Under the pieces are notes generated by a model. It did no database searches and was not told the DNA's origin. It saw nothing but the letters and a program-made list of their open reading frames with translations. A DNA stretch of 19,601 bases from a virus (Duplodnaviria; Heunggongvirae; Uroviricota; Caudoviricetes): IMG/VR virus record IMGVR_UViG_2529293139_000005; one strand, 5' to 3'. Shown here in pieces: positions 1-15,768 of this stretch. Within the stretch, counting starts at the first letter, position 1. Every line of letters begins with the position of its first letter. A program made the position numbers and the translations under genes.

Positions 1-729
1 TTATTTGCTCTCTTCTGGATTCACCCAGGCAACTCGTCGCTGCATGTCGATTTGTTGCCATTCCAGATTTATGATGTTCGACTTTCTCAGACCAGTTGCC
101 AGCGCAAACTTGACGACAGATTTCAGTGGTTCGGGGCACTCATCAATAAGGCGTTTTGCTTCCTCCTTTTCCAGCCATCTGACTCGCTTGTTTCTGACCG
201 CTGGTATCTTGATGACAGGCGCTTTTTCCAGCCACTTCCAGTCGCGTTCTGCAGCACGGAGAATGGCCTTTATCATGGCAAGATGCTTTGCCTTTGTCTG
301 AGTTGATACTGGCTTTGGTTCATAAACAGGCAGTTCTTTACCTTTCCTGATGGCGGCCTGAACTTTCTGTTTCCATATTTCTTTCGTCTTTCTGTTATGC
401 ATTCTGCTTACAGCAGAGTAAATCTTTGCCTCCGAGATATCTTTAAGCCTTATATCCTCAAAATGTTCAAGCCAGAACTCAATCCGGCTTTTATCTGAAT
501 CGAGAGATTTTTTATCAGCTTTTTCCTCAAGCCATCTTAGGCAGGCCTCTTCAAAAGTGACATCAGGTAAATCCCCTAGCTTTTCTACTCGCCAGAGTTC
601 TGCTTTTCGCTTGTCGTGCAACTCCTGAGCTTGCCGCTTGTCCTTTGTGCCAAGAGATTCCTTAATTCGTTTCCCGCCCGGGAGCGAATACGAGGCATAC
701 CATATTTCATTTCTGCGGAAGAGTGACAT
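1..729 (-). CDS. int: Tyrosine integrase, N-terminal portion only (242 aa); frame closed by TAA at bases 3..1, catalytic domain not encoded; probable truncated or pseudogene int
   Basis: ORF 1..729(-) starts [33 protein letters not shown], the N-terminus typical of lambdoid IntD-type integrases (full length about 390 aa from memory). 729 bp = 242 codons plus stop, so the stop lies at the window edge. Confidence 0.7.
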
Positions 730-956
730 TTTCTTTCCTCTGTTATGCCATCACCCGCGCTCACCTGGACAGTATGCAGCGGAGACTGAAGCGCCGCAAT
801 GCAGGCTTGCCGTGTTGTGAGGTAAGGAGATTTTGGCTTGGTTGGATCTTTACGTGTTGCCTGTAGGCGGCCTGTTCGTATCCAGTTGGTGGCGGTTGGT
901 CTGGATATCTTAAGAAACTGACAGGCCTCATCGAGTGTGAGGCTGTATGATTCCAT
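585..956 (-). CDS. xis: Excisionase-like HTH protein (AlpA/Xis family); start taken at internal Met [31 protein letters not shown]; overlaps int start
   Basis: ORF 585..986(-); HTH segment [21 protein letters not shown] resembles phage excisionase/AlpA DNA-binding domains; position directly upstream of int as in lambdoid phages. Start and extent uncertain. Confidence 0.55.
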
Positions 957-1206
957 GGTTACCTCTGCTTTTTGAACGCATGTCACGTAACTTCTTAATG
1001 TGTTCTGCCGTTTCGATCTCTTCTGCTATCCGATCTGCATCAGCTTTATTCACAGGTTCAAAGTCATGATTAAAGCGGAACATGCTGGCGATACATGTTC
1101 TGCCTTTTCGGATGTAGTGAACTTTGTTGTGGGTAGAACGCAGGATTTTGCAGGGAGTGCCGTGGTGGTCGACGTACCAGGTGTTAGGAAAAATGATTCT
1201 GAACAT
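928..1206 (-). CDS. Hypothetical early-left protein (92 aa)
   Basis: ORF 928..1206(-), same strand and operon orientation as flanking phage genes; no family recognised. Confidence 0.35.
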   Translation of the reverse strand: MFRIIFPNTWYVDHHGTPCKILRSTHNKVHYIRKGRTCIASMFRFNHDFEPVNKADADRIAEEIETAEHIKKLRDMRSKSRGNHGIIQPHTR

Positions 1207-1253
1207 TTTTACACCTCAGTTGGACGATGTTGAAATTTGCTGCTTTGAGGCCA

Positions 1254-1472
1254 TCACAGTCCCCATTGTTTGTTCTTAAGTTCGATCTCCTCCTGGCAAC
1301 TCGCACAAGTCCGACAACCCTGAACAGCCAGGCGTCTTCGCTCATCTATCGGATCGCCACACTCACAACAATGAGTTGCGGATACAGTCTGGTAGTTCAG
1401 ACGACGCATTTTTATTGCTGTATTGCGCTGTAATTCTTCGATTTCTGATGCTGAATCAATGATGTCTGCCAT
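1254..1472 (-). CDS. TraR/DksA-family C4 zinc-finger protein (72 aa)
   Basis: MADIIDSASEIEELQRNTAIKMRRLNYQ...CCECGDPIDERRRLAVQGCRTCASC: CxxC...CxxC zinc ribbon preceded by a coiled region, as in phage TraR-like proteins. Confidence 0.7.
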   Translation of the reverse strand: MADIIDSASEIEELQRNTAIKMRRLNYQTVSATHCCECGDPIDERRRLAVQGCRTCASCQEEIELKNKQWGL

Positions 1473-1570
1473 CTTTCATTAATCCCTGAATTGTTGGTTA
1501 ATACGCTTGAGGGTAAATGCGAATAATAAAAAAGGAGCCTGTAGCTCCCTGATGATTTTGCTTTTCATGT

Positions 1571-1852
1571 TCACCGTTCCTTAAAGACGCCGTTCAACAT
1601 GCCGATCGCCAGGCTTAAATGAGTCGGTGTGAATCCCATCAGCGTTACCGTTTCGCGGTGCTTCTTTAGTACGCTACGGCAAATGTCATCGACGTTTTTA
1701 TCCGGAAACTGCTGTCTGGCTTTTTTGATTTCAGAATTAGCCTGACGGGCAATGCTGCGAAGGGCGTTTTCTTGCTGAGGTGTCATTGAACAAGCCCCAT
1801 GTCGGCAAGCATAAGCACACAGAATATGAAGCCCGCTGCCAGAAAAATGCAT
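1571..1852 (-). CDS. Hypothetical early-left protein; start uncertain (ATG 1852 giving 93 aa, or ATG 1786 giving 71 aa beginning MTPQQENALRSIARQ)
   Basis: ORF 1571..1852(-); both candidate ATGs sit in ATGA start/stop overlaps with upstream reading frames. Confidence 0.45.
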   Translation of the reverse strand: MHFSGSGLHILCAYACRHGACSMTPQQENALRSIARQANSEIKKARQQFPDKNVDDICRSVLKKHRETVTLMGFTPTHLSLAIGMLNGVFKER

Positions 1853-1862
1853 TCAGTGGTTG

Positions 1863-2054
1863 TCATACCTGGTCTCTCTCATCTGCTTCTGCTTTCGCCA
1901 CCATCATTTCCAGCTTTTGTGAAAGGGATGCGGCTAACGTGTGAAATTCTTCGTCTGTTTCTACTGGTATTGGCACAAACCTGACTCCAATTTGAGCGAG
2001 GCTATGTGCCATCTCGATACTCGTTCTTAACTCAACGGGAGATGCTTTGTGCAT
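1863..2054 (-). CDS. Hypothetical small early-left protein (63 aa)
   Basis: ORF 1863..2054(-) with GAGGGG about 5 nt upstream of the ATG; lies in the small-ORF cluster left of exo as in lambda. Confidence 0.45.
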   Translation of the reverse strand: MHKASPVELRTSIEMAHSLAQIGVRFVPIPVETDEEFHTLAASLSQKLEMMVAKAEADERDQV

Positions 2055-2215
2055 ACAGCCCCTCGTTTATTATTTATCTCCTCAGCCAGCCGCTGGGCTT
2101 TCAGTGGATTTTGGATAACAGAAAGGCCGGGAAATACCCAGCCTCGCTTTGTAACGGAGTAGACGAAAGTGATCGCGCCTACCCGGATATTATCGTGAGG
2201 ATGCGTCATCGCCAT
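2027..2215 (-). CDS. Hypothetical small protein (62 aa) immediately upstream of exo; overlaps neighbours
   Basis: ORF 2027..2215(-); overlaps exo start by 10 nt and the 1863..2054 ORF by 28 nt, so at most weakly supported. Confidence 0.3.
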
Positions 2216-2886
2216 TGCTCCCCAAATACAAAACCAATTTCAGCCAGTGCCTCGTCCATTTTTTCGATGAACTCCGGCACCATCTCGTCAAAACTCGCCA
2301 TGTACTTTTCATTCCGCTCAATCACGACATAATGCAGGCCTTCACGCTTCATGCGCGGGTCATAGTTGGCAAAGTACCAGGCATCTTTTCGCGTCACCCA
2401 CATGCTGTACTGCACCTGGGCCATGTAAGCCGATTTTATTGCCTCGAAACCACCGAGCCGGAATTTCATGAAATCCCGGGAGGTAAACGGGCATTTCAGT
2501 TCAAGGCCGTTGCCGTCACTGCATAAACCATCGGGAGAGCAGGCGGTGCGCATATTTTCGTCGCGATAGATGATCGGGGATTCAGTAATATTCACGCTGG
2601 AAGTGAATTCAAACAGGGTTCTGGCGTCGTTCTCGTACTGTTTTCCCCAGGCCAGCGCCTTAGCATTAACTTCCGGAGCCACACCGGTGCAAACCTCAGC
2701 CAGCAGGGTGTGGAAGTAGGACATTTTCATGTCAGGCCACTTCTTTCCTGAGCGGGGCTTTGCTATCACGTTGTGAACTTCTGAAGCGGTGATGACGCCG
2801 AGCCGTAATTTGTGCCATGCATCATCCCCCTGTTCGACAGCTCTCACGTCGATCCCGGTACGCTGCAGGATAATGTCCGGTGTCAT
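2206..2886 (-). CDS. exo: Lambda-type exonuclease (Red alpha, 226 aa)
   Basis: [40 protein letters not shown]... matches lambda Exo essentially along its whole length (from memory); ATGA overlap with bet stop. Confidence 0.95.
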
Positions 2887-3668
2887 GCAGCCACCTTCTG
2901 CTCAGAGGCTTTCTGTTTCAGGAATCCAAGAGCTTTCACTGCTTCGGCCTGTGTCAGTTCTGACGATGCGCGAATGTCGCGGCGAAATATCTGGGAACAG
3001 AGCGGCAATAAGTCGTCATCCCATGTTTTATCCAGGGCAATCAGCAGAGTGTTAATCTCCTGCATGGTTTCATCGTTAACCGGAGTGATGTCGCGTTCCG
3101 GCTGACGTTCTGCAGTGTATGCGGTATTTTCGACAATGCGCTCGGCTTCATCCTTGTCATAGATACCAGCAAATCCGAAGGCCAGACGGGCACACTGAAT
3201 CATGGCTTTATGACGTAACATCCGTTTGGGATGCGACTGCCACGGTCCCGTGATTTCTCTGCCTTCGCGGGTTTTGAATGGTTCGCGGCGACATTCATCC
3301 ATCCACTCGGTAACGCAGATCGGATGATTGCGGTCCTTGCGGTAAATCCGGCATGTACAGGATTCATTGTCCTGCTCAAAGTCCATGCCATCAAACTGCT
3401 GGTTTTCATTGATGATGCGGGACCAGCCATCAACGCCCACCACCGGAACGATGCCGTTCTGCTTATCAGGAAAGGCGTAAATTTCTTTCGTCCACGGATT
3501 AAGGCCGTACTGGTTGGCGACGATCAGCAATGCGATGAACTGCGCATCGCTGGCATCGCCTTTAAATGCCGTCTGGCGAAGAGTGGTGATCAGTTCCTGT
3601 GGGTCGACAGAATCCATGCCGACACGTTCAGCCAGCTTCCCTGCCAGCGTTGCGAGTGCTGTACTCAT
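2883..3668 (-). CDS. bet: Lambda-type single-strand annealing protein Bet (Red beta, 261 aa)
   Basis: [66 protein letters not shown]... matches lambda Bet from memory. Confidence 0.95.
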
Positions 3669-3673
3669 TCGTT

Positions 3674-3970
3674 TTATACCTCTGAATCAATATCAACCTG
3701 GTGGTGAGCAATGGTTTCAACCATGTACCGGATGTGTTCTGCCATGCGCTCCTGAAACTCAACATCGTCATCAAACGCACGGGTAATGGCTTTTTTGCTG
3801 GCCCCGTGGCGTTGCAAATGATCGATGCATAGCGATTCAAACAGGTGCTGGGGCAGGCCTTTTTCCATGTCGTCTGCCAGTTCTGCCTCTTTCTCTTCAC
3901 GGGCGATCTGCTGGTAGTGACGCGCCCAGCTCTGAGCCTCAAGACGATCCTGAATGTAATAAGCGTTCAT
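3674..3970 (-). CDS. gam: Gam, RecBCD inhibitor (98 aa, GamS-length form)
   Basis: [60 protein letters not shown]... matches lambda Gam from memory; 5-nt gap to bet start. Confidence 0.9.
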
Positions 3971-4046
3971 GGCTGAACTCCTGAAAATGGCTGTGAAAAT
4001 AGCGCCCGCGAAATGCCAGGCTGATTAGGAAAACAGGAAAGGGGGG

Positions 4047-4424
4047 TTAGTGATTCAGGCCGTTACCGCGTCCGTCGAGAAAAACTTCCACGAGCAAATC
4101 ACGGGTATAAGTGCGCTCGATGCCGCGATGCAGATAAAGCCGTCCGCGTAAATTAGCTGATGCAGTCCAGGTACCATCTTTGTGTTTGACCAGCATTCCT
4201 GGCATGACCGCACCTCGATTAACGGTCTGCGTTCCGTAATGTTGATGAACCATAAAAACTCCTGCCCGTAAGCTGGGCTGCTGAACATATAGAGACTTCT
4301 GCGCGTATTCAGGCGGTGGATGGCCGCCGGTTGTCATAACTAAGCCGCCTCGTTGAAGCGACTGAGGTATGAGGTGTTGAGTTGATTTCAGCTGGTCACA
4401 CCGACGTTCACGCGTCCGTTTCAC
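4047..4424 (-). CDS. Hypothetical early-left protein with Arg-rich N-terminus (possible N-like antiterminator, or a kil-position gene); start uncertain (TTG 4457, GTG 4424 or ATG 4337)
   Basis: ORF 4047..4457(-) begins at TTG. GTG at 4424 is preceded by GGGGAG at 8-nt spacing and would give MKRTRERRCDQLK, reminiscent of N-protein Arg-rich motifs; ATG 4337 has GAGG upstream. First gene downstream of the putative PL. Confidence 0.4.
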   Translation of the reverse strand: MKRTRERRCDQLKSTQHLIPQSLQRGGLVMTTGGHPPPEYAQKSLYVQQPSLRAGVFMVHQHYGTQTVNRGAVMPGMLVKHKDGTWTASANLRGRLYLHRGIERTYTRDLLVEVFLDGRGNGLNH

Positions 4425-4523
4425 CCCTCGCACTCCCCGGAGCCTGCCGAAATTCAAGCTGCGGATCTAAGCGGTCATCGCAACGGTGAATCAGGCGGTT
4501 GCCGTATCGTTGTGTTGTTGCGA

Positions 4524-4580
4524 CATGGTAATAATAGCTATTGCTATTGGTGGTATCAATACTTATTGCTATTGATTGAT
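4524..4580 (-). promoter_or_regulatory. Candidate PL promoter with operators (OL): minus-strand -35 TTGATA (plus 4554..4559), 17-bp spacer, -10 TATTAT (plus 4531..4536); TTGCTATT repeats
   Basis: Sigma70-like hexamers with 17-bp spacer read off the minus strand; 13-mer TTGCTATTGATTG at 4566..4578 is identical to 7216..7228 in the cI-cro intergenic region; palindrome AATAGCTATT at 4533..4542. Confidence 0.45.
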
Positions 4581-4699
4581 GTGTTTTGATATTAACTGTT
4601 TGATAGCAAAAAGAATTAATTTTGTGACTTGCATCGCATAGCGATAACTGAAGGGAGGTTGTGGTGGTTTTTCGAACGGTTTGTGTGATGAGGGGAGGG

Positions 4700-4730
4700 G
4701 ACAAAAGAAAACCCGGCACGGTGGCCGGGC
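4700..4730 (-). terminator. Rho-independent terminator ending the cI-kinase cassette transcript
   Basis: Minus strand reads CCCGGC-caccgt-GCCGGG followed by TTTTCTTTTGT; GC stem 4712..4717 / 4724..4729. Confidence 0.6.
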
Positions 4731-4894
4731 TAGATCTTAAAGTATTTATCTTTTAGAGATGTAGATGCAAAATTTTTTGCCTTTGAAAATTTTTTGTCAT
4801 CAGAAGAGCTTATGAACTCATCTTTTTTGTAGGGAACCGCTAATGCTGCATCACGTCTGCGAGGCAGCTTACTTACTTCCTCGCACTTTTTCAT
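4730..4894 (-). CDS. Small basic protein (54 aa, MKKCEEVSKLPRRRDAALAVPYKKDEFISSSDDKKFSKAKNFASTSLKDKYFKI); third gene of the kinase cassette; absent from the supplied ORF track
   Basis: Hand translation of the minus strand; ATG 4894..4892 lies 2 nt after the kinase TGA (4899..4897) with AAGGA 8 nt upstream; TAG stop overlaps the terminator stem. Confidence 0.4.
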   Translation of the reverse strand: MKKCEEVSKLPRRRDAALAVPYKKDEFISSSDDKKFSKAKNFASTSLKDKYFKI

Positions 4895-4896
4895 GA

Positions 4897-5943
4897 TCAG
4901 TTATCCTTTAATAACCTATACAGTTTTGTAGGGGTACATCCTGAGGATATTGTTAAGTTCGTAGCACGCCTTTTCCGCCCACCATCGTATAAACGAAAAC
5001 CAGTAGTAGACGAATTTTCTGCGTCAAAAACTATAGACAGTATAACGTCCCCAGACTTTTTTTGCCATTCATATGTGCCGTTAGTTGGTTTTGTCATCTG
5101 TAGACGCCAGTCAAGAACGCCATCACTTATAGCTGAGAGATCGTTTAGTACGTCTAGTACGGATTGATATCTTTCATTTGGATCTACATGAATGCATTTG
5201 TTTACTATTGTTATCAATTTTTTATGTATGTGGGAAGGATACTCTTTTAATGGATAGGAGCCATTAATTATCGACTCTCTGAGTTGTTCAATCGTTCTAA
5301 ATGCAGATCTTTCTCTTTCAAAATTATCATATCCAACACACATTCTATATATGGTTAATCCTGCCTGATATATGTCATATGTGAAATTATAATCATTTGT
5401 TGATAAAGAAAAATATTCCGGTGGCACATGAAAATGATATCCAAACTCAGGCGCAGCTCTCGATTCCTCATTGACTAACTGAGACAATCCAAAGTCAGAT
5501 AGCATGGCCTCATTTCTGTTTGATATCATGATGTTATTAGGTTTTATATCAAAATGCATAAGACCTTTTGAGTGTATATGATAAAGCCCACTTAAAAATT
5601 GAATAGAATACCGTATTATCTCCCTGCTCGTAAGATTAATCTTTTTTATTAATTGGTTTAGCGAACCATTATGATAAAATGGCATGGCTATATAGATATT
5701 GCTCTCACATTGAGCAGCATACTGAACTTGCACAATATTTGGATGTGCATGTTTATAGAGAAGCCTTGCTTCATTAAAGTAGTCGTCGTGGTTAGTGTTT
5801 TCTTTTTTTTCTATTTCTTTAATCACCAAGTCATGAGCTAGGTGTCTGTCATGAGCCAGATATACTTTTGAAAAACAACCCTGTTCTTCTAGATCACGAA
5901 TCCATTCGAATGCTACATCAGCTCTTTTGTATGGAGTCAGCAT
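4897..5943 (-). CDS. Hanks-type (eukaryotic-like) Ser/Thr protein kinase, 348 aa, with C-terminal extension of unknown function
   Basis: Kinase motifs in order: LVIKE (beta3 Lys), HFDIKPNN (catalytic loop, non-RD), SDFGLS (DFG), PPEY (APE-like); strong GGAGG RBS; AT-rich relative to neighbours. Confidence 0.85.
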   Translation of the reverse strand: MLTPYKRADVAFEWIRDLEEQGCFSKVYLAHDRHLAHDLVIKEIEKKENTNHDDYFNEARLLYKHAHPNIVQVQYAAQCESNIYIAMPFYHNGSLNQLIKKINLTSREIIRYSIQFLSGLYHIHSKGLMHFDIKPNNIMISNRNEAMLSDFGLSQLVNEESRAAPEFGYHFHVPPEYFSLSTNDYNFTYDIYQAGLTIYRMCVGYDNFERERSAFRTIEQLRESIINGSYPLKEYPSHIHKKLITIVNKCIHVDPNERYQSVLDVLNDLSAISDGVLDWRLQMTKPTNGTYEWQKKSGDVILSIVFDAENSSTTGFRLYDGGRKRRATNLTISSGCTPTKLYRLLKDN

Positions 5944-6398
5944 CCCCTTACCTCCGCAGATAGTGCAGCCAAAACAGCTTCATTTGTTTCAGTTGTAAAA
6001 CCAGAATTATCGATTCCATTTATATTACGGTGTGACTTCAATATTTCTTTATACTCGATCTCTGTTAGGTTCAATGATGACTTCATACCAGATTTTCTAA
6101 TGGTGTAATATCTTCTTACATCACTGCTTGAAAATGCTTCTTGAATAACAGCTTCTATATAAAGGCGGTCAATGCTAAGATTATCAGAGTTTGATTCAGT
6201 AACGCGTATAGCAGCTAATTCAACATTATATAAATTAAGAATGTCGAGGATGTTATTTCGCACATACTTTAATTTTTCTGGTGTGTCTAAGGTCGAAGGT
6301 ATTTTAATAACATCAACACATTTGAGTGCAGACTCATCAGTGCAATATACAACAAAAGATGTAACTTTGGGCGCCGCCCTAACACCTAGTATTCTCAT
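5937..6398 (-). CDS. Hypothetical protein (153 aa), first gene of the kinase cassette, translationally coupled to the kinase
   Basis: ORF 5937..6398(-); its TGA (5939..5937) lies 2 nt inside the kinase ATG (5943..5941); no recognisable domain; AT-rich. Confidence 0.65.
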   Translation of the reverse strand: MRILGVRAAPKVTSFVVYCTDESALKCVDVIKIPSTLDTPEKLKYVRNNILDILNLYNVELAAIRVTESNSDNLSIDRLYIEAVIQEAFSSSDVRRYYTIRKSGMKSSLNLTEIEYKEILKSHRNINGIDNSGFTTETNEAVLAALSAEVRGC

Positions 6399-6478
6399 TT
6401 TTTATATCCCATTTTAGAATCAGGCTGCGTTTCTGCAGCCTCTCTCATCACCCAAATGTCTAATCAGGCTATTATTGA

Positions 6479-7171
6479 TTATCCATGTTTCCTGTATGTT
6501 TGCGGCATGCTCCCAATAACTTTCCCGAAGATAAACACCCGGTTCATCTCGTCTTTCTCGATTGGGTCCCACGGTGAGTAGCTCTTGTTATCAGAGATAA
6601 CCAGCAGTTTATCCTTCATCATTTGCAGGCGCTTAACATGGGCTGTGTCGTCATACAGAAACGCATAGATACCATCACCGTCGAAAGATTTAACAGTGAT
6701 ATCAACGAACAGAAGATCACCTGGTTCGATCGTTCCTGACATGCTGTCACCGCGTACGTTAATGATGCGGATATTTTCTGCCTTCCTGCCATCGAACATG
6801 TGACGAGCATCGTCAAACGAGTACTCAACCGAGCGTAGAACTTCTACAAACTCACGGTTGATGACTCCCGGCCCGGCACTCACTTCTATATCAAGAACGT
6901 CAATCTTGAAGTATTTGGGATGGTTGGCAGCAGGCTTCCCTGATTGTTGACCGTCATTTCTCATCGGGCCTATGCCTGATGAGAGCCACTCTGTTCGAAC
7001 ACCCAATGCATTAGCTATTTCAACAATTTTTGTTGAGCCGCGTGCGTTGCCGCTTGTCAGTCTCCAGATTGTGGGTTGAGCTACGCCAGACGCCTTTGCA
7101 AGAGCGCCTTGAGACATTCCAGATTGTTCCATCGCTAGGTTTAAGCGATCAGCAAGAGTTTCTTTTTTCAT
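6479..7171 (-). CDS. cI: CI-type prophage repressor: N-terminal XRE-family HTH plus C-terminal LexA-like S24 autopeptidase domain (about 230 aa from Met at 7171)
   Basis: HTH MSQGALAKASGVAQPTIWRL; S24-like segment with RGDSMSG (Ser) and downstream VKRL (Lys); no SD before ATG 7171 (possibly leaderless like lambda cI); the ORF-track start at 7207 would fall inside the promoter. Confidence 0.85.
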   Translation of the reverse strand: MKKETLADRLNLAMEQSGMSQGALAKASGVAQPTIWRLTSGNARGSTKIVEIANALGVRTEWLSSGIGPMRNDGQQSGKPAANHPKYFKIDVLDIEVSAGPGVINREFVEVLRSVEYSFDDARHMFDGRKAENIRIINVRGDSMSGTIEPGDLLFVDITVKSFDGDGIYAFLYDDTAHVKRLQMMKDKLLVISDNKSYSPWDPIEKDEMNRVFIFGKVIGSMPQTYRKHG

Positions 7172-7180
7172 AAGTTTTAA

Positions 7181-7250
7181 TTTATACGCTTGCGTATTGA
7201 TGGTCAAAACACGTTTTGCTATTGATTGGGTTAATACGCATTGCTATTAT
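7181..7250. promoter_or_regulatory. Divergent PRM/PR promoter and operator (OR) region between cI and cro
   Basis: Plus-strand PR candidate: -35 TTGATT 7222..7227, 17-bp spacer, -10 TATTAT 7245..7250; minus-strand PRM candidate -10 TATAAA (plus 7181..7186); near-palindrome ATACGCTTGCGTAT; TTGCTATT at 7216 and 7241. Confidence 0.5.
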
Positions 7251-7281
7251 CCATTCATTGTAATACCAATAGGAATTGATA

Positions 7282-7509
7282 ATGACAAATCAAACCATTC
7301 AACTCGCAATCAGTATTACAGGTAGTCAAAAACGACTGGCAGATCTATGCGGTGTAGCCCAGCCCACTGTTTGGCGTTGGCTACACGGTGGCGGAATTGA
7401 TGCCCGCTATGTAATGAAAATTGTCTCAGCCACTGGTGGAAAGATTAAACCAGCAGATATTCGTCCCGACCTTGCACCATTGTTTAACGCGAGTAATTCT
7501 GCCGCCTAA
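7282..7509 (+). CDS. cro: Cro-like HTH regulator (75 aa from ATG 7282)
   Basis: MTNQTIQLAISITGSQKRLADLCGVAQPTVWRWLHGG with HTH; AGGAA RBS 7271..7275; divergent from cI. Confidence 0.8.
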   Translation: MTNQTIQLAISITGSQKRLADLCGVAQPTVWRWLHGGGIDARYVMKIVSATGGKIKPADIRPDLAPLFNASNSAA

Positions 7510-7539
7510 ACTGCGGCGTTAACTGATAAGGCAATGATT

Positions 7540-8079
7540 ATGCAACCACTTACATACCAACAGACTAGCGGATTTAGCCCGACTGCGGTGATAAATCGTT
7601 CTCAAATAAAACAGGTGCCAGGCCACGAAAAAATCCGTGATGCCGTTCGCGCCTGGTCGGCTGCAGATAATCAGGATGTTGTTGCCGCACTCATTGTGAA
7701 TGAGTATCGGGAGCAGGGCGGCGGCACCATCGATTTCCCTGATGATGTCAGCCGTGCACGCCAGAAGCTGTTCCGCTTCCTCGATAACAAATTCGATTCT
7801 GAAAAATACCGAAATAACGTGCGTGAACTGACCCCGGCAATTCTGGCGGTACTACCGCTGGAATATCGCGGCCACCTGGTTGAGCAGGATAGCTTCATGG
7901 CTCGGCTGGCTGAAATGGAAAAGGAACTCTGTGAGGCAAAGCAGGCGGTCATTCTCAACGCACCACGCCACCAGAAACTGAAGGAGATGAGTGAAGGCAT
8001 TGTGTCGATGTTTCGAGTGGACCCGGATCTGGCTGGTCCATTGATGGCGATGGTCACCACCATGCTGGGGGCAATATGA
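7540..8079 (+). CDS. YdaT-like protein in the cII position (about 180 aa)
   Basis: Sits immediately after cro where lambda has cII; segments EYREQGGG and LTPAILAVLPLEYRGHL resemble the YdaT family as I recall it; start 7534 or 7540. Confidence 0.55.
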   Translation: MQPLTYQQTSGFSPTAVINRSQIKQVPGHEKIRDAVRAWSAADNQDVVAALIVNEYREQGGGTIDFPDDVSRARQKLFRFLDNKFDSEKYRNNVRELTPAILAVLPLEYRGHLVEQDSFMARLAEMEKELCEAKQAVILNAPRHQKLKEMSEGIVSMFRVDPDLAGPLMAMVTTMLGAI

Positions 8080-8085
8080 CAGGTT

Positions 8086-8178
8086 CAAAAATGGCGAAAG
8101 TCGGTCTGCGGGAACAGAACCGACTTTCAGGTGCAAATCGTAACACACTCATTGCGGGAGGAATTATGGCAAACACTG
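8086..8178 (-). ncRNA. Candidate OOP-like antisense RNA, defined by a minus-strand intrinsic terminator; promoter and 5' end not established
   Basis: Perfect 10-bp inverted repeat GAAAGTCGGT (8096..8105) / ACCGACTTTC (8119..8128) with 13-nt loop; on the minus strand it is followed by GCCATTTTTG; no minus-strand gene upstream to terminate. Confidence 0.35.
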
Positions 8179-9095
8179 CTGAGATATTCAATTTTCCAGT
8201 GCCGGATGCGGCACAAAAGGAGCCGCGCGTGGCAGATCTCGATGATGGTTATACGCGCATTGCAAATGAGTTGCTGGAAGCTGTGATGCTGGCCGGATTA
8301 ACACAGCACCAGCTTCTGGTCTTCCTGGCTGTCATGCGCAAAACATATGGCTTTAATAAAAAACTGGATTGGGTGAGCAACGAGCAACTGTCCGGATTGA
8401 CCGGGATATTACCGCACAAGTGTTCTGCTGCAAAAAGTGTTCTGGTAAAGCGTGGGATTTTGATTCAGAGCGGGCGGAATATCGGTATTAATAATGTGGT
8501 CAGTGAATGGTCAACATTACCCGAATCAGGTAAGAAAAATAAAGTTTACCTGAAAGAGGTAAATTTACCTGAATCAGGTAAGAAAAGTTTACCCAAATCA
8601 GGTAAAGGCGTTTACCCGAATCAGGTAAACACAAAAGACAAACTAACAAAAGACAATATAAAACCTTTTTCGTCCGAGAATTCTGGCGAATCCTCTGACC
8701 AACCAGAAAACGATCTTCCTGTGGTGAAACCAGATGCTGCAATTCAGAGCGGCAGCAAGTGGGGGACAGCAGAAGACCTGACCGCCGCAGAGTGGATGTT
8801 TGACATGGTGAAGACCATCGCACCATCAGCCAGAAAACCGAATTTTGCAGGGTGGGCTAACGATATCCGCCTGATGCGTGAACGTGACGGACGTAACCAC
8901 CGCGACATGTGCGTGCTTTTCCGCTGGGCATGCCAGGACAACTTCTGGTCCGGTAACGTGCTAAGTCCGGCCAAACTCCGCGACAAGTGGACCCAACTCG
9001 AAATCAACCGTAACAAGCAACAGGCAGGCATGATAGCCAGCAAACCAAAACTCGACCTGACAAACACTGACTGGATTTACGGGGTGGATTTATGA
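8166..9095 (+). CDS. O: Replication initiator O (309 aa from ATG 8166); non-lambda N-terminal domain, lambda-type C-terminal domain
   Basis: GGGAGG RBS 8156..8161; N-terminus MANTAEIFNFPVPD parallels lambda O MTNTAKILNF; C-terminal WANDIRLMRERDGRNHRDMCVLFRWACQDNFWSGNVLSPAKLRDKWTQLEINRNKQQAG matches lambda O from memory. Confidence 0.9.
   Translation: MANTAEIFNFPVPDAAQKEPRVADLDDGYTRIANELLEAVMLAGLTQHQLLVFLAVMRKTYGFNKKLDWVSNEQLSGLTGILPHKCSAAKSVLVKRGILIQSGRNIGINNVVSEWSTLPESGKKNKVYLKEVNLPESGKKSLPKSGKGVYPNQVNTKDKLTKDNIKPFSSENSGESSDQPENDLPVVKPDAAIQSGSKWGTAEDLTAAEWMFDMVKTIAPSARKPNFAGWANDIRLMRERDGRNHRDMCVLFRWACQDNFWSGNVLSPAKLRDKWTQLEINRNKQQAGMIASKPKLDLTNTDWIYGVDL
8517..8629. repeat. Replication origin iterons inside O: four 18-bp palindromic TTACC-N8-GGTAA repeats plus one degenerate copy, followed by an A+T-rich stretch
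   Basis: ttacccgaatcaggtaag 8517..8534; ttacctgaatcaggtaag 8565..8582; ttacccaaatcaggtaaa 8589..8606; ttacccgaatcaggtaaa 8612..8629; degenerate copy 8546..8563; A/T-rich 8630..8675. Confidence 0.85.
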
Positions 9096-9793
9096 AAAAC
9101 ATCGCCGCACAGATGGTTAACTTTGACCGTGAGCAGATGCGTCGGATCGCCAACAACATGCCGGAACAGTACGACGAAAAGCCGCAGGTACAGCAGGTAG
9201 CGCAGATCATCAACGGTGTGTTCAGCCAGTTACTGGCAACTTTCCCGGCGAGCCTGGCTAACCGTGACCAGAATGAACTGAACGAAATCCGCCGCCAGTG
9301 GGTGCTGGCTTTCCGGGAAAACGGGATCACCACAATGGAACAGGTTAACGCTGGAATGCGCGTAGCCCGTCGGCAGAATCGACCATTCCTGCCATCACCC
9401 GGGCAGTTTGTCGCCTGGTGCCGGGAAGAAGCATCCGTTACCGCCGGGCTGCCAAACGCCAGCGAGCTGGTTGATATGGTTTACGAGTATTGCCGGAAGC
9501 GCGGGCTGTATCCGGATGCAGAGTCTTATCCGTGGAAATCAAACGCGCACTACTGGCTGGTTACCAACCTGTATCAGAACATGCGGGCCAATGCGTTGAC
9601 TGACGCGGAATTACGGCGCAAGGCTGCCGATGAACTGTCCTGTATGACCGCACGAATTAACCGTGGTGAGGCTATACCTGAACCAGTAAAACAACTTCCT
9701 GTCATGGGCGGTAGACCTCTAAATCGTGCACAGGCTCTGGCGAAGATCGCAGAAATCAAAGCTAAGTTTGGGCTGAAAGGAGCAAGGGTATGA
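9092..9793 (+). CDS. P: Replication protein P (helicase loader), lambda-type, 233 aa
   Basis: MKNIAAQMVNFDREQMRRIANNMPEQYDEKPQVQQVAQIINGVFSQLLATF... matches lambda P from memory; ATGA overlap with O. Confidence 0.95.
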   Translation: MKNIAAQMVNFDREQMRRIANNMPEQYDEKPQVQQVAQIINGVFSQLLATFPASLANRDQNELNEIRRQWVLAFRENGITTMEQVNAGMRVARRQNRPFLPSPGQFVAWCREEASVTAGLPNASELVDMVYEYCRKRGLYPDAESYPWKSNAHYWLVTNLYQNMRANALTDAELRRKAADELSCMTARINRGEAIPEPVKQLPVMGGRPLNRAQALAKIAEIKAKFGLKGARV

Positions 9794-10092
9794 CGGGCAA
9801 AGAGGCAATTATTCATTACCTGGGGACTCATAAGAAATTCTGTGCGCAGGACGTTGCCGCGGTAACAGGCGCAACGGTAACCAGCATAAATCAGGCTGCG
9901 GCTAAAATGGCACGGGCAGGTCTTCTGGTTATCGAAGGTAAGGTCTGGCGAACGGTGTATTACCGGTTTGCTACCAGAGAAGAACGGGAAGGAAAGGTGA
10001 GCACGAATCTGATTTTTAAGGAGTGTCGCCAGAGTGCCGCGATGAAACGGGTATTGAGGGTATATAAAAGAACATCAATGGGTACACAATGA
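9790..10092 (+). CDS. ren: Ren (100 aa)
   Basis: MTGKEAIIHYLGTHKKFCAQDVAAVTGATVTSINQAAAKMARAGLLVIEGKVWRTVYYRFATREEREGK matches lambda Ren from memory; ATGA overlap with P. Confidence 0.9.
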   Translation: MTGKEAIIHYLGTHKKFCAQDVAAVTGATVTSINQAAAKMARAGLLVIEGKVWRTVYYRFATREEREGKVSTNLIFKECRQSAAMKRVLRVYKRTSMGTQ

Positions 10093-10159
10093 TGAAACAG
10101 GTGAGTTGAGTTCAAACTGTAGTACAATTCTCTCCAGTTTGAACAGGAAAGAATATTCT

Positions 10160-10492
10160 ATGAACCCTTATATTTATCTTGGTGGTGCAATACTTGCAGA
10201 GGTCATTGGTACAACCTTAATGAAGTTTTCAGAAGGTTTTACACGGTTATGGCCATCTGTTGGTACAATTATTTGTTATTGTGCATCATTCTGGTTATTA
10301 GCTCAGACGCTGGCTTATATTCCTACAGGGATTGCTTATGCTATCTGGTCAGGAGTCGGTATTGTCCTGATTAGCTTACTGTCATGGGGACTTTTCGGCC
10401 AACGGCTGGACCTGCCAGCCATTATAGGCATGATGTTGATTTGTGCCGGTGTGTTGGTTATTAATTTATTGTCACGAAGCACACCACATTAA
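10160..10492 (+). CDS. emrE: Small multidrug resistance efflux transporter EmrE (110 aa)
   Basis: MNPYIYLGGAILAEVIGTTLMKFSEGFTRLWPSVGTIICYCASFWLLAQTLAYIPTGIAYAIWSGVGIVLISLLSWG... matches E. coli EmrE from memory; AGGAAAG RBS. Confidence 0.95.
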   Translation: MNPYIYLGGAILAEVIGTTLMKFSEGFTRLWPSVGTIICYCASFWLLAQTLAYIPTGIAYAIWSGVGIVLISLLSWGLFGQRLDLPAIIGMMLICAGVLVINLLSRSTPH

Positions 10493-10523
10493 AAATAATT
10501 TGTTTCTAAACGACTAAAATATG

Positions 10524-10565
10524 GAGGCTCTTATATTTATATGAGCCTCGTTTTATGCTTTTTGT
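10524..10565 (+). terminator. Rho-independent terminator after emrE
   Basis: GAGGCTC (10524..10530), 12-nt loop, GAGCCTC (10543..10549), then GTTTTATGCTTTTT. Confidence 0.6.
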
Positions 10566-10748
10566 TAATGTCTTTATTTTTTTATGTATTCTTTTGTGCT
10601 TTCAAGATTATGGCGTAAGAAAATTGCAATACGATTATTGTTGTATATTCAAGATAATGTGACCTTAATTGTCTTTTTAAATAAAAATTAAACAAAAATT
10701 ATATCCCACCACTAAGGTTTATAAAAGCATACGTTAGCAGGTGTCACC

Positions 10749-12275
10749 ATGAAAAAAGCCATAGCATATATGCGATTTTCATCACCAGGTCAGATGTCTG
10801 GCGACTCATTAAACCGACAGAGAAGACTTATTGCTGAATGGTTAAAGGTAAATAGTGATTATTATCTTGATACCATAACATATGAAGATTTAGGATTAAG
10901 TGCATTCAAAGGAAAGCATGCACAATCAGGAGCTTTTTCGGAATTTTTAGATGCTATAGAGCATGGTTATATATTGCCAGGAACTACATTGTTAGTTGAA
11001 AGTCTGGACAGACTTTCAAGAGAAAAAGTCGGTGAAGCGATTGAACGTCTGAAATTGATTTTGAATCACGGTATTGATGTTATAACTCTTTGCGACAATA
11101 CAGTCTATAATATTGACTCTTTGAATGAGCCATATTCATTAATAAAAGCCATACTTATAGCACAAAGGGCAAATGAAGAAAGCGAGATAAAGTCAAGTCG
11201 GGTTAAATTATCATGGAAGAAAAAACGGCAGGATGCACTGGAATCAGGTACGATTATGACGGCGTCTTGTCCGAGATGGCTCTCCTTAGATGACAAAAGA
11301 ACGGCTTTTGTTCCAGACCCCGACAGGGTGAAAACTATTGAGCTAATTTTTAAACTCAGGATGGAAAGGCGCTCATTGAATGCAATAGCCAAGTATTTAA
11401 ATGATCATGCTGTAAAGAATTTCTCAGGAAAAGAAAGTGCATGGGGACCTTCTGTAATTGAAAAATTATTAGCGAATAAAGCTCTGATAGGTATATGCGT
11501 ACCTTCATATCGTGCAAGAGGTAAAGGAATAAGTGAAATCGCTGGCTATTATCCCAGAGTCATATCAGATGATTTGTTTTACGCTGTACAGGAAATTCGG
11601 TTGGCACCTTTTGGTATTAGCAATAGTAGCAAAAATCCTATGTTGATAAATCTACTTCGAACAGTTATGAAGTGCGAGGCTTGTGGTAATACCATGATTG
11701 TTCATGCGGTATCTGGAAGTTTGCATGGCTATTATGTTTGTCCGATGAGAAGACTGCATCGATGTGACAGGCCATCAATAAAGAGAGATTTGGTTGATTA
11801 TAATATCATTAATGAGTTGCTTTTTAATTGTAGTAAAATCCAACCAGTTGAAAACAAGAAAGATGCTAATGAAACTTTAGAGTTGAAAATTATTGAGCTC
11901 CAGATGAAAATTAATAATTTAATTGCTGCATTATCTGTTGCGCCTGAAGTTACCGCTATAGCAGAAAAAATCAGAGTATTAGATAAGGAATTACGAAGGG
12001 CTTCTGTATCATTAAAAACTTTGAAGAGTAAAGCGGTGAGTTCACTTGGTGATTTTCATGCTATTGACTTAACCAGTAAAAATGGGCGAGAGCTATGTCG
12101 TACACTTGCCTATAAAACATTCGAAAAAATCATAATCAATACAGATAATAAAACCTGTGATATCTATTTTATGAATGGCATTGTTTTTAAACACTATCCT
12201 TTAATGAAAACAATATCCGCCCAGCAGGCGATAAGTACTCTCAAATATATGGTTGATGGTGAGGTTTATTTTTGA
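10749..12275 (+). CDS. ybcK: Large serine recombinase (508 aa), YbcK-like
   Basis: N-terminal resolvase-type catalytic region AIAYMRFSSPGQ (Ser), large central domain, Cys cluster CEACGN...CPMRRLHRC (zinc ribbon), coiled-coil C-terminus; AT-rich gene downstream of emrE as in DLP12. Confidence 0.85.
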   Translation: MKKAIAYMRFSSPGQMSGDSLNRQRRLIAEWLKVNSDYYLDTITYEDLGLSAFKGKHAQSGAFSEFLDAIEHGYILPGTTLLVESLDRLSREKVGEAIERLKLILNHGIDVITLCDNTVYNIDSLNEPYSLIKAILIAQRANEESEIKSSRVKLSWKKKRQDALESGTIMTASCPRWLSLDDKRTAFVPDPDRVKTIELIFKLRMERRSLNAIAKYLNDHAVKNFSGKESAWGPSVIEKLLANKALIGICVPSYRARGKGISEIAGYYPRVISDDLFYAVQEIRLAPFGISNSSKNPMLINLLRTVMKCEACGNTMIVHAVSGSLHGYYVCPMRRLHRCDRPSIKRDLVDYNIINELLFNCSKIQPVENKKDANETLELKIIELQMKINNLIAALSVAPEVTAIAEKIRVLDKELRRASVSLKTLKSKAVSSLGDFHAIDLTSKNGRELCRTLAYKTFEKIIINTDNKTCDIYFMNGIVFKHYPLMKTISAQQAISTLKYMVDGEVYF

Positions 12276-12386
12276 GTAATAATCACTTTTTCAACCGTGC
12301 TATAGTAAGAAAGTTAGGTAAGTACAATAAAATTATCTATCCTGAACGAAGCGTCCTGAGCTATGGTTTTACTATAGAGACTGCCA

Positions 12387-15760: not shown

Positions 15761-15768
15761 TAATCAGA

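What the first reader, a model, noticed from the sequence alone, without database searches (positions are those of the whole stretch)
4730..4894. Unannotated 54-aa Lys-rich ORF between the kinase and the terminator
A minus-strand ORF below the ORF-track size cutoff (MKKCEEVSKLPRRRDAALAVPYKKDEFISSSDDKKFSKAKNFASTSLKDKYFKI) starts 2 nt after the kinase stop with an AAGGA ribosome-binding site, and its TAG stop is embedded in the terminator stem. The tight packing suggests a genuine third cassette component, possibly a small regulator or kinase substrate/effector.
Basis: seen in the sequence. Interest (0 to 1): 0.45.

Follow-up and report, generated by a model that had tools for sequence, protein, structure and literature searches.

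The report
Conserved small partner gene of Stk kinase
The 54-codon reading frame after the prophage kinase is a real, selected protein-coding gene (the 933W gene L0081), the last of three genes that travel together as a phage-exclusion cassette in many bacteria; what the protein does is still unknown.

Summary
The ORF is at 4730..4894 (-) as described: AAGGA 9 nt before the ATG, a 2-nt gap after the kinase stop, and a TAG stop inside the terminator stem. It is not new as a sequence. It is 933W gene L0081 (annotated 1999) and PHROG family phrog_4063 (function unknown), though RefSeq does not annotate this window's allele.

It is a real coding gene. dN/dS is about 0.28 in its own frame and about 1.1-1.2 in four of the five other frames (0.46, with stops, in the antisense frame). 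It has no stops in ten homologues, a third-position excess of substitutions, and one in-frame 12-nt deletion.

It belongs to the cassette. The order RuvC-fold ORF (153 aa), Stk kinase, small ORF, terminator is kept with the same spacing across Enterobacterales, in unrelated genomic neighbourhoods. In E. coli complete genomes 224 carry the kinase (223 near full length) and 223 the ORF.

Kinase relatives of 37-52% identity from other phyla also carry a 49-65 aa basic ORF starting -8 to +10 nt from the kinase stop (13 of 14 lineages; about 8% expected). Sequence homology to those is shown only in part.

Rare kinase-less copies exist in Salmonella. Function is untested. My best guess is a stoichiometric regulatory partner or (pseudo)substrate of Stk.

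The parts
4730..4894 (-). Small ORF, 54 aa, basic (pI 9.8). Orthologue of 933W L0081 and member of phrog_4063. Third and last cistron of the cassette.
   Evidence: ORF and translation. PHROG hit E 3.4e-38. dN/dS 0.16-0.38 in 28 pairs. Substitutions at codon positions 1/2/3 = 27/26/49. Only frame +1 has low dN/dS and no stops. Invariant residues M1 K2 K3, P11 R12 R13 R14 D15 A16 A17, A19, P21 Y22, L47 K50 F52.
4904..4908 (-). AAGGA Shine-Dalgarno-like sequence inside the last codons of stk, 9 nt before the ATG.
   Evidence: Sequence. AAGGA is kept in all kinase-linked Enterobacterales loci, including Pragia, where the encoded kinase residues differ.
4897..5943 (-). Stk, a eukaryotic-like Ser/Thr(/Tyr) protein kinase of 348 aa and orthologue of 933W Stk. 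Its TGA stop is 2 nt before the small ORF's ATG.
   Evidence: Pfam Pkinase E 1.2e-46. 96.9% DNA identity to the 933W stk region. PADLOC PD-T4-6/mad6 profile hits. 933W annotation.
5937..6398 (-). First cistron, 153 aa (933W L0083), with a RuvC fold. It overlaps the stk start by 7 nt. An invariant Arg7 sits where RuvC has its catalytic Asp7.
   Evidence: phrog_3875. AF2 pLDDT 91.6, pTM 0.86. Foldseek top hits are RuvC resolvases, TM about 0.8. Invariant columns. A homologue lies directly upstream of the kinase in 14 of 15 distant loci.
4700..4731 (-). Intrinsic terminator (933W tM equivalent): stem-loop 4731..4710 plus a T-run. It marks the 3' end of the mobile module.
   Evidence: Scan. Fold. 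933W tM annotation. A hairpin plus T-run follows the small ORF in nearly all of the 20 loci compared (decayed in L006, no T-run in the Pantoea locus L023). Homology between loci ends at the T-run.
6479..7171 (-). CI-type repressor (HTH plus S24 peptidase), upstream of the cassette on the same strand. By analogy with 933W and lambda, the cassette is read from its maintenance promoter in the lysogen.
   Evidence: Pfam. RefSeq annotation as XRE family regulator. Co-transcription of the 933W kinase with cI is stated in PMC3564112. It was not tested for this prophage.

Best explanation
The ORF is a genuine protein-coding gene. It is the last cistron of a three-gene operon: a 153-aa RuvC-fold protein, the Stk kinase and a small basic protein, ended by an intrinsic terminator. 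The operon moves between prophages and islands as one module. In this DLP12-like lambdoid prophage it sits downstream of the cI repressor gene, the position that rexAB holds in lambda. There it is expected to be expressed in the lysogen as part of the Stk abortive-infection (phage-exclusion) system known from 933W. Shown here: the ORF is coding and under purifying selection, it is translationally coupled in layout, it is co-inherited and co-occurs with the kinase and the RuvC-fold gene, and a small basic ORF at this position is conserved far beyond Enterobacterales. Inferred only: the roughly 6-kDa product is made in step with Stk and binds it as a regulatory subunit. It would be either a pseudosubstrate-like brake or the first substrate (phospho-switch). 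The invariant basic motif PRRRDAA-x-A-x-PY and the C-terminal aromatic motif KYFK(I/L) would be its docking elements.
For: Coding: dN/dS 0.16-0.38 in 28 pairs. Median 0.28 in frame +1 against 1.15-1.21 in four other frames and 0.46, with stops, in the antisense-phase frame. No stops in frame +1. Third-position excess 27/26/49 and an in-frame 12-nt deletion in one homologue. Synonymous changes occur inside the invariant LPRRRDAALAVPY block. No RNA covariation in the ORF body.

Cassette membership: identical gene lengths and spacing in Klebsiella, Enterobacter, Serratia, Xenorhabdus, Pantoea and Pragia. The neighbourhoods differ: after cI, beside tail genes, beside integrases or P4-like AlpA, and beside thrS. 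Homology between loci starts 7-110 nt before the first gene and stops at the terminator. In E. coli complete genomes the kinase is in 224 (223 near full length) and the ORF plus terminator in 223. All 48 IMG/VR loci with kinase identity of 56% or more have it intact. Pairwise distances of the three genes correlate at r = 0.93-0.97.

Deep conservation of the architecture: in kinase relatives of 37-52% identity (Acinetobacter, Rhizobiales, Rhodobacterales, Haemophilus, Flavobacteria, Bacteroides, cyanobacteria), 13 of 14 lineage representatives have a 49-65 aa ORF with net positive charge starting -8 to +10 nt from the kinase stop. Shuffles expect 0.7-24% per locus, P <= 1e-7. In these ORFs pN is below pS. 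The one locus without it also lacks the RuvC-fold gene.

Stk function: exclusion of HK97 by 933W Stk is cited in PMC3681748 and PMC3564112.
Against: No experiment or structure here shows that the small protein touches the kinase. No complex prediction could be run.

Kinase-less copies exist in Salmonella prophages, after cI alone or after an unrelated 112-aa ORF, one of them with its own GGAGG. The gene can therefore persist without a neighbouring kinase, which argues for some independent value or recent loss.

Profile searches link the window's family only to relatives whose kinase is at least 51% identical. hhalign against the more distant small ORFs is negative, so those are positional analogues and homology to them is not proven.

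The pseudosubstrate resemblance (R-R-D-A-A) is a by-eye pattern. The model of the protein alone is only moderately confident (pLDDT 72, pTM 0.27). Whether 933W exclusion needs L0081 could not be checked, because the primary Stk papers are not in the held library.
Confidence: 0.6

Rival explanations
1. The small basic protein works with the RuvC-fold first gene rather than with the kinase. It could be a nucleic-acid-binding cofactor, or an adaptor that bridges the RuvC-fold protein and Stk.
For: It is strongly basic (pI 9.6-11 in 16 of 17 lineages, net charge +5 to +10). The first gene has a confident RuvC fold. All three genes co-occur, and the only distant locus lacking the small ORF also lacks the RuvC-fold gene. 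Its distances correlate as well with the first gene (r = 0.93) as with the kinase (r = 0.94).
Against: The translational coupling is to the kinase stop, not to the first gene. No nucleic-acid-binding domain was detected. The RuvC-fold protein has an invariant Arg at the first catalytic Asp position, so it may not be a nuclease at all.
Confidence: 0.17
2. The small protein is the sensor or bait of the system. It would be the fast-evolving surface that an infecting phage's trigger protein engages, releasing or activating Stk.
For: It evolves faster than its two neighbours. Mean p-distance is 0.33 against 0.27 and 0.21, and dN/dS about 0.28 against 0.04-0.15 and 0.03-0.11. Its middle segment is variable between two invariant motifs. 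Stk is reported to be silent until HK97 infects (PMC3681748).
Against: No positive selection was detected, since all pairs have dN/dS below 0.4. There are no data on which component meets the phage trigger. Fast evolution is also the norm for short, partly disordered proteins.
Confidence: 0.1
3. It is an independent small gene (a moron) that merely shares the 3' end of the operon. Its function would be unrelated to the kinase, for example a lysogeny or exclusion factor of its own.
For: Salmonella prophages carry the ORF plus terminator without the kinase. In those loci homology begins at the ATG or 5 nt before it, and one type has its own GGAGG. pN/pS between a solo copy and its closest kinase-linked relative is 0.33.
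Against: Solo copies are rare, 2 of 23 protein clusters. They derive from a kinase-linked lineage: the junction in L020 still carries the kinase stop and spacer TGAT, and the closest type is kinase-linked in 6 of 6 places. Two solo copies differ from each other at pN/pS 0.9 and by a 12-nt deletion, which hints at relaxed constraint. Co-occurrence in E. coli is one-to-one, and the position is conserved across phyla.
Confidence: 0.1
4. It is not a functional protein. Either it is a chance ORF in the 3' UTR, or it is translated only so that a ribosome reaching the stop modulates the overlapping terminator, with the peptide sequence irrelevant.
For: The stop codon lies in the terminator stem in this window and its close relatives. 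PGAP does not call the gene for this allele. dS is lower than in the neighbouring genes (0.5-0.9 against 1.4-2.3), so some nucleotide-level constraint is possible.
Against: Frame-specific purifying selection and invariant amino-acid motifs with synonymous variation. In Xenorhabdus and Pragia the terminator is a different hairpin 9-20 nt beyond the stop, so the overlap is not conserved. There is no covariation-supported RNA structure and no Rfam hit.
Confidence: 0.03

Closest known systems
Phage 933W L0081 (AAD25426.1), the ORF after stk in the 933W immunity region; PHROG family phrog_4063
   Same: Orthologue, 92.6% amino-acid identity. Same length, same 2-nt junction after stk, and the same terminator (annotated tM in 933W).
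   Different: The cI gene and the leftward flank of this prophage differ from 933W, and homology stops at the terminator. No function has been assigned to L0081 in any source I could search.
933W Stk abortive-infection / HK97 exclusion (Friedman et al. 2011, as cited in PMC3681748 and PMC3564112)
   Same: The kinase here is the same protein family, with 96.9% DNA identity over the region. It sits in the same place, downstream of cI.
   Different: The citing papers I could read describe that system as the kinase alone. Here the kinase is always flanked by a RuvC-fold gene and the small ORF. Whether exclusion needs them is unknown to me.
Lambda rexA-rexB in the cI operon
   Same: These are accessory exclusion genes transcribed with the repressor in the lysogen and ended by a terminator just before oL/pL (general knowledge and PMC3564112). 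oL/pL-like repeats lie at 4526-4574, right after the terminator here.
   Different: No sequence or fold relationship. Rex is a two-protein sensor and membrane-channel system, not a kinase.
PD-T4-6 and other single-gene Ser/Thr-kinase defence entries (PADLOC), and Staphylococcus Stk2
   Same: The kinase domain hits PD-T4-6 and mad6 profiles (E 1e-36 to 1e-49). They share the idea of kinase-mediated abortive infection.
   Different: Those entries are defined as single genes. PADLOC has no model for the small ORF or for the first gene. The profile matches are generic kinase-domain matches.
Pseudosubstrate kinase inhibitors such as PKI (R-R-N-A-I); recalled from general knowledge, a lead only
   Same: The invariant R13-R14-D15-A16-A17 has the form basic-basic-x-Ala-small/hydrophobic. 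One relative (L090) has Ser at the first Ala position and others (P0028-P0031) at the second, and several distant ORFs have R-x(1-3)-S/T in the same N-terminal zone.
   Different: No homology. The pattern was spotted by eye. R-x(1-3)-S/T enrichment is weak (11 of 14 observed, 5.5 expected, post hoc). The substrate preference of Stk is unknown to me.
Kinase-type toxin-antitoxin pairs (HipBA)
   Same: A potentially toxic kinase has a small co-translated partner.
   Different: HipB is upstream and has an HTH domain. This protein is downstream, has no detectable DNA-binding domain, and is part of a three-gene unit.

Membership tests
phrog_4063 / 933W L0081 small-protein family | Significant full-length match to the family profile | tested here: met
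   E 3.4e-38, residues 1-54 on profile positions 1-54. 92.6% identity to 933W L0081 by tblastn.
phrog_4063 / 933W L0081 small-protein family | Located directly after an stk orthologue and before an intrinsic terminator | tested here: met
   2-nt gap after the stk stop, terminator at 4731..4700. Same layout in 933W.
933W-type Stk exclusion cassette | Eukaryotic-like kinase orthologous to 933W Stk with intact catalytic motifs | tested here: met
   Pkinase E 1.2e-46. 96.9% DNA identity to 933W. Lys42, HFDIKPNN and DFG are invariant in alignment A3.
933W-type Stk exclusion cassette | Co-transcription with cI from the maintenance promoter in the lysogen | not testable with these tools
   Same strand and order as in 933W. 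Only the published statement for 933W is available (PMC3564112).
933W-type Stk exclusion cassette | Excludes a superinfecting phage (HK97) by abortive infection | not testable with these tools
   Needs plaque and survival assays.
Three-gene RuvC-fold / kinase / small-ORF operon (defined here) | RuvC-fold gene immediately upstream of, and overlapping, the kinase gene | tested here: met
   5937..6398 overlaps stk by 7 nt. RuvC fold. Homologue present in 14 of 15 distant loci.
Three-gene RuvC-fold / kinase / small-ORF operon (defined here) | ORF of about 50-65 codons, usually basic, starting within about 10 nt of the kinase stop | tested here: met
   Window: +2 nt. Distant lineages: 13 of 14, against a mean of 8% expected, P <= 1e-7. 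pI 9.6-11 in 16 of 17.
Three-gene RuvC-fold / kinase / small-ORF operon (defined here) | All small ORFs are homologous (one protein family) | tested here: inconclusive
   HMM iteration reaches relatives with kinase identity of at least 51%, and the next best hit (E 0.43) is again a kinase-downstream ORF. hhalign against the distant sets is negative. A shared C-terminal aromatic motif is seen in 10 of 14 against 0.7 expected, but the pattern is post hoc.
PD-T4-6 (PADLOC single-gene kinase defence) | Kinase matches the PD-T4-6 profiles | tested here: met
   Best PD-T4-6 model E 1.5e-36. mad6 scores higher at 8.3e-49.
PD-T4-6 (PADLOC single-gene kinase defence) | Stand-alone single-gene system | tested here: not met
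   The kinase is embedded in a conserved three-gene unit.
Type II toxin-antitoxin (kinase toxin plus small antitoxin) | Small partner with a DNA-binding fold (HTH/RHH), usually upstream, that autoregulates the operon | tested here: not met
   No Pfam, NCBIfam or PDB match. It lies downstream. The model shows three short helices and no recognisable fold.
Type II toxin-antitoxin (kinase toxin plus small antitoxin) | Partner neutralises the toxicity of the kinase | not testable with these tools
   Needs co-expression and toxicity assays.
Terminator-controlling (attenuator-like) trailer peptide | Stop codon/terminator overlap conserved, peptide sequence free to vary | tested here: not met
   The overlap is absent in Xenorhabdus and Pragia. 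The peptide is under purifying selection.
Structured non-coding RNA / 3'UTR sRNA | Match to a known RNA family, or a covariation-supported structure | tested here: not met
   No Rfam hit in the window. 0 compensatory pairs, covariation term +0.33.
RuvC Holliday-junction resolvase (for the first gene of the cassette) | RuvC fold | tested here: met
   Foldseek E about 1e-9, TM 0.79-0.80 to T. thermophilus RuvC.
RuvC Holliday-junction resolvase (for the first gene of the cassette) | Complete acidic catalytic set, including the first Asp (E. coli RuvC D7; from general knowledge) | tested here: not met
   The motif is ILG(V/I)R, with Arg7 invariant in 18 and in 30 sequences. Equivalence to D7 is inferred from the position in strand 1, not from a structural superposition that I inspected.

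The most novel reading that the evidence does not exclude
The Stk exclusion system may be a three-component machine rather than a lone kinase: a RuvC-fold (possibly non-catalytic) protein, a non-RD eukaryotic-like kinase, and a fast-evolving basic peptide of about 55 aa. The machine would be conserved from Enterobacterales to Bacteroidota and cyanobacteria. In it the peptide is the regulatory (pseudo)substrate or sensor subunit that keeps the kinase silent until a phage arrives.
Probability: 0.35. Interest if true: 0.7.

Novelty: new member of a known kind. Interest (0 to 1): 0.5.

Why it matters
Stk of 933W is one of the oldest examples of a prophage kinase that kills an infected cell to stop a rival phage. 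Current defence catalogues treat such kinases as single-gene systems. This analysis shows that the kinase is almost never alone. A small basic protein and a RuvC-fold protein are inherited with it as a unit, in many hosts and genomic sites. Gene callers often drop the small gene, including RefSeq for this very allele.

If the peptide controls or reports on the kinase, three things follow. Published single-gene reconstructions may be incomplete. Defence-finder models should include it. How the kinase is kept off in a healthy lysogen becomes directly testable with a 165-nt deletion. If it has no role, it is simply one more conserved hypothetical phage gene.

Tried and rejected
- Pfam, NCBIfam and PADLOC on the 54-aa protein gave no hits.
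- A PDB sequence search with the family profile gave none.
- Rfam over the whole window gave none.
- The exhaustive HMMER search of 1.84 billion representatives found only 13 clusters, all 50-80 aa, with no fusion to a larger protein that could hint at function.
- A genome-contig scan with the small-protein alignment confirmed no loci, because the query is too short for the tblastn confirmation step.
- hhalign between the Enterobacterales family and the distant kinase-downstream ORFs was negative twice, so I do not claim that all of them are homologous.
- RNA-structure reading: RNAalifold gave no compensatory pairs, so it was rejected.
- Terminator-attenuation reading: rejected because the overlap is not conserved.
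- Remnant-of-kinase reading for the Salmonella solo copies: there is no kinase or first-gene remnant by tblastn or blastn, though the L020 junction retains TGAT.
- Literature: searches for L0081 and for the guessed EDL933 locus tags Z1443-Z1445 returned nothing relevant. The primary Stk papers (Tyler and Friedman 2004; Tyler et al. 2004; Friedman et al. 2011) are not in the held library. No paper describing a three-gene Stk system was found.
- No complex prediction of kinase plus peptide was possible with the tools.
Full report
OBSERVATION. The minus strand of the window carries an ATG ORF at 4730..4894 that encodes MKKCEEVSKLPRRRDAALAVPYKKDEFISSSDDKKFSKAKNFASTSLKDKYFKI. The upstream ORF, 4897..5943, is a protein kinase (Pfam Pkinase E 1.2e-46). 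It ends in TGA at 4899..4897, followed by the spacer TC and then the ATG. AAGGA lies at 4908..4904, 9 nt before the ATG. The TAG stop is at 4732..4730, and its last two bases open a terminator stem (4731..4710; 8 pairs, 6 G-C) that is followed by a T-run. The hairpin folds at -16.8 kcal/mol, z = -3.0.

WHERE THIS IS. The window is a lambdoid prophage of E. coli and is 100% identical to 30 complete genomes over the 2.2 kb tested. RefSeq annotation of one of them shows a DLP12-type prophage: int, xis, exo, bet, gam, kil on one side and O, P, emrE, ybcK/L/M, quuD, essD/rrrD/rzpD on the other.

- The order on the minus strand is CI-type repressor (6479..7171), a 153-aa ORF (5937..6398), the kinase, the small ORF, and the terminator.
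- Operator-like repeats overlapping a promoter-like site follow at 4526-4574.
- This is the layout of the 933W immunity region, where the same genes are L0083, stk and L0081 and the terminator is annotated tM.
- The match to 933W is 96.9% identical and ends at the terminator.

The ORF is therefore not new as a sequence. It is the orthologue of 933W L0081 (92.6% amino-acid identity) and belongs to PHROG family phrog_4063, of unknown function (E 3.4e-38). 'Unannotated' holds only for this allele. RefSeq lists no feature under it in the genomes that carry it, whereas the 933W-type allele is called 'hypothetical protein'. In NZ_CP027462.1 the locus tags jump from RS14160 to RS14170 at exactly this place.

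IS IT A GENE? I collected homologous DNA from 20-odd loci.

- Nei-Gojobori dN/dS of the small ORF is 0.16-0.38 in all 28 pairs of eight distinct cassettes. In the same loci the kinase gives 0.04-0.15 and the 153-aa gene 0.03-0.11.
- Minimum substitutions at codon positions 1, 2 and 3 are 27, 26 and 49. Inside the invariant N-terminal block they are 4, 8 and 16, so the conserved peptide LPRRRDAALAVPY is written with varying codons.
- The frame control is clean. Frame +1 has median dN/dS 0.28 and no stop in any sequence. Four other frames give 1.15-1.21 with 28-59 stops. The antisense frame in the same codon phase gives 0.46 with 12 stops.
- One Salmonella homologue has a 12-nt in-frame deletion.
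- RNAalifold finds no compensatory pair in the ORF body, and Rfam has no hit in the window.

I conclude that the ORF encodes a protein whose sequence matters. The probability that it is non-coding is a few percent.

IS IT PART OF THE CASSETTE? The arrangement of a 152/153-aa gene, a 346-349-aa kinase, a 2-nt gap and a 53-55-aa ORF recurs in Klebsiella, Enterobacter lignolyticus, Serratia fonticola, Xenorhabdus bovienii, Pantoea agglomerans, Pragia fontium and unnamed metagenomic contigs.

- The neighbourhoods are unrelated: after cI in lambdoid prophages, next to Mu-like or P2-like tail genes, next to integrases, in P4-like AlpA/integrase elements, and beside thrS.
- DNA homology to the window begins 7-110 nt upstream of the first gene and stops at the terminator T-run. 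The small ORF and terminator therefore lie inside one mobile module.
- AAGGA in the kinase's last codons is kept even where those codons encode other residues.
- In 5,426 complete E. coli genomes the kinase is present in 224 (223 near full length), and the ORF plus terminator is present at 80% coverage or more in 223.
- All 48 IMG/VR loci whose kinase is at least 56% identical have the ORF intact.
- Pairwise protein distances of the three genes correlate at r = 0.93-0.97, and the small protein is the fastest evolving (mean p-distance 0.33 against 0.27 and 0.21).

DEEPER CONSERVATION. Scans with a kinase alignment returned relatives of 37-52% identity from Acinetobacter, Rhizobiales, Rhodobacterales, Haemophilus, Flavobacteriia, Bacteroides, a cyanobacterium and others.

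- In 14 of 15 genome loci a homologue of the 153-aa gene sits directly upstream (E 1e-22 to 1e-37).
- In 13 of 14 lineage representatives an ORF of 49-65 codons starts between -8 and +10 nt of the kinase stop, often as ATGA or TGATG overlaps.
- Shuffling the downstream sequence gives such an ORF in 0.7-24% of trials per locus (mean 8%), so P <= 1e-7.
- These ORFs all carry a net positive charge, with pI 9.6-11 in all but the cyanobacterial one (pI 8.0). Where pairs can be compared, pN is below pS, with dN/dS about 0.2-0.4 where dS is not saturated.
- The single locus without the small ORF also lacks the upstream gene and looks like a lone kinase.

Sequence homology to the window's protein can be shown only part of the way. 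Iterated HMM searches against 6,512 six-frame segments of all loci take in every relative whose kinase is at least 51% identical. The best remaining hit (E 0.43) is again a kinase-downstream ORF. hhalign against the more distant sets is negative. A C-terminal aromatic motif of the form Y-[FL]-x-[LF] (KYFKI in the window) occurs in 10 of 14 distant ORFs against 0.7 expected. I chose that pattern after seeing the data. I therefore describe the distant ORFs as positional equivalents that are probably, but not demonstrably, homologous.

EXCEPTIONS. Salmonella prophages carry the ORF plus terminator without any kinase. One type lies directly after cI (L020). The other lies after an unrelated 112-aa ORF and a weak hairpin, with its own GGAGG (L006-L008).

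- There is no kinase or first-gene remnant in these loci. Homology to the cassette starts at the ATG, or 5 nt before it, and ends after the terminator.
- The closest kinase-linked type (P0005) is kinase-linked in 6 of 6 places. The L020 junction still reads TGAT, which is the kinase stop and spacer.
- pN/pS between that pair is 0.33. The two solo types differ from each other at 0.9, on very few sites.

The solo copies are thus rare derivatives of the cassette. They show that the ORF can outlive the kinase. I cannot tell whether they are functional.

WHAT THE PROTEIN LOOKS LIKE. It has 54 aa, pI 9.8, 22% Lys and no hydrophobic segment. Invariant across 18 family members are M1 K2 K3, P11 R12 R13 R14 D15 A16 A17, A19, P21 Y22, L47, K50 and F52. 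F42 and Y51 are nearly invariant. AlphaFold2 with that alignment gives a moderately confident model without a globular fold: pLDDT 72, pTM 0.27, helices at 13-18, 30-44 and 47-51. Only 13 clusters at 50% identity exist among 1.84 billion representative proteins. All are 50-80 aa and none is fused to another domain.

THE OTHER TWO GENES. The kinase has the catalytic Lys, HFDIKPNN (a non-RD loop) and DFG, all invariant. It hits PADLOC's PD-T4-6 and mad6 kinase profiles. The 153-aa protein is predicted with high confidence (pLDDT 91.6, pTM 0.86), and its best structural matches are RuvC resolvases (TM about 0.8). The family motif in the first strand is ILG(V/I)R with an invariant Arg, where RuvC has its first catalytic Asp. 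It may therefore be a non-catalytic or altered RuvC-fold protein.

MECHANISM. According to papers I could read, the 933W kinase is co-transcribed with cI, is silent in uninfected cells, and is activated by HK97 infection to abort it (PMC3564112; PMC3681748). Shown here: the small gene is made from the same transcription unit, is positioned for translational coupling to the kinase, and has been kept with it over large evolutionary distances.

From that I infer that the peptide is a stoichiometric partner in the system. The reading I favour is a kinase-bound regulatory subunit. The invariant basic stretch R-R-D-A-A resembles a basophilic-kinase pseudosubstrate. One relative (L090) has Ser at the first Ala position and others (P0028-P0031) at the second, and distant ORFs tend to carry R-x(1-3)-S/T in the same zone (11 of 14 against 5.5 expected). 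The invariant Tyr22 is a candidate acceptor for a kinase that has been described as tyrosine-phosphorylating. These are leads and not tests.

Rivals are a cofactor or adaptor for the RuvC-fold protein, a fast-evolving bait for the phage trigger, or an independent moron. A purely RNA or terminator-control role is unlikely, because the stop/terminator overlap is lost in Xenorhabdus and Pragia and selection acts on the amino-acid sequence.

VERDICT. The gene itself is already on record as an uncharacterised hypothetical protein. I did not find the following described anywhere in the searchable literature: the 933W-type Stk is embedded in a conserved three-gene unit of RuvC-fold protein, kinase and small basic protein that extends well beyond Enterobacterales. 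The function of the small protein remains open and is cheaply testable.

Noticed in passing
window 5937..6398 (-): The first gene of the cassette (933W L0083) has a confident RuvC fold, but an invariant Arg (ILGVR) sits where RuvC has its first catalytic Asp. It may be a non-catalytic RuvC-like protein. It accompanies the kinase in 14 of 15 distant loci.
   Followed up: partly
window 4289..4709 (-): About 420 nt between the terminator and the kil-like gene have no annotated gene and no N-type antiterminator, unlike 933W. They contain two 24-nt operator-like direct repeats (4526-4549 and 4551-4574) that overlap a promoter-like site, TTGATA-17-TATTAT at 4559..4531. This is probably oL/pL followed by a long leader. 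There is no Rfam hit. The 103-aa GTG ORF at 4408..4719 overlaps the terminator and is probably spurious.
   Followed up: partly
NZ_CP027462.1 (= window), L105 14706..15348: RefSeq locus tags run RS14160 (kinase) and then RS14170 (kil), skipping RS14165 exactly where the small ORF lies. This suggests a gene call that was later withdrawn. PGAP annotates the 933W-type allele (94.8% identical) but not this one.
   Followed up: no
L006-L008 6001..6153; L020 1277..1441: Salmonella prophages carry the small ORF plus terminator without the kinase or the RuvC-fold gene. In L006-L008 it follows an unrelated 112-aa ORF (phrog_12509, unknown function) and a hairpin, and has its own GGAGG. In L020 the junction retains TGAT from the kinase stop.
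   Followed up: partly
window 4857..4884 (-), codons 4-13 of the small ORF: An inverted repeat UGCGAGG-N14-CCUCGCA could form a 7-bp hairpin 9 nt after the start codon. It is invariant in the kinase-linked close relatives and broken in the Salmonella solo copy L007. There is no covariation to judge it, and it may simply reflect the conserved amino acids.
   Followed up: no
P0007, P0012, P0015 (Logan assemblies): Three variants of the small protein have altered C-termini caused by frameshifts near the A-runs (GACAAAAAATTTT, GGCAAAAAATTTT). Each comes from a single short contig, so they are as likely assembly errors as real slippage variants.
   Followed up: no
window 4730..4894 compared with 4897..6398: Synonymous divergence of the small ORF (dS 0.5-0.9) is about half that of the two upstream genes (1.4-2.3) in the same locus pairs. 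This is unexplained. It could reflect extra nucleotide-level constraint, A-rich codon use, or more recent exchange of the 3' end of the module.
   Followed up: no
window 1..19601: The prophage is DLP12-like (emrE, ybcK/L/M, quuD, essD/rrrD/rzpD, a porin gene and iss), but it has an intact-looking int-xis-exo-bet-gam-kil arm and the Stk cassette in its immunity region.
   Followed up: no
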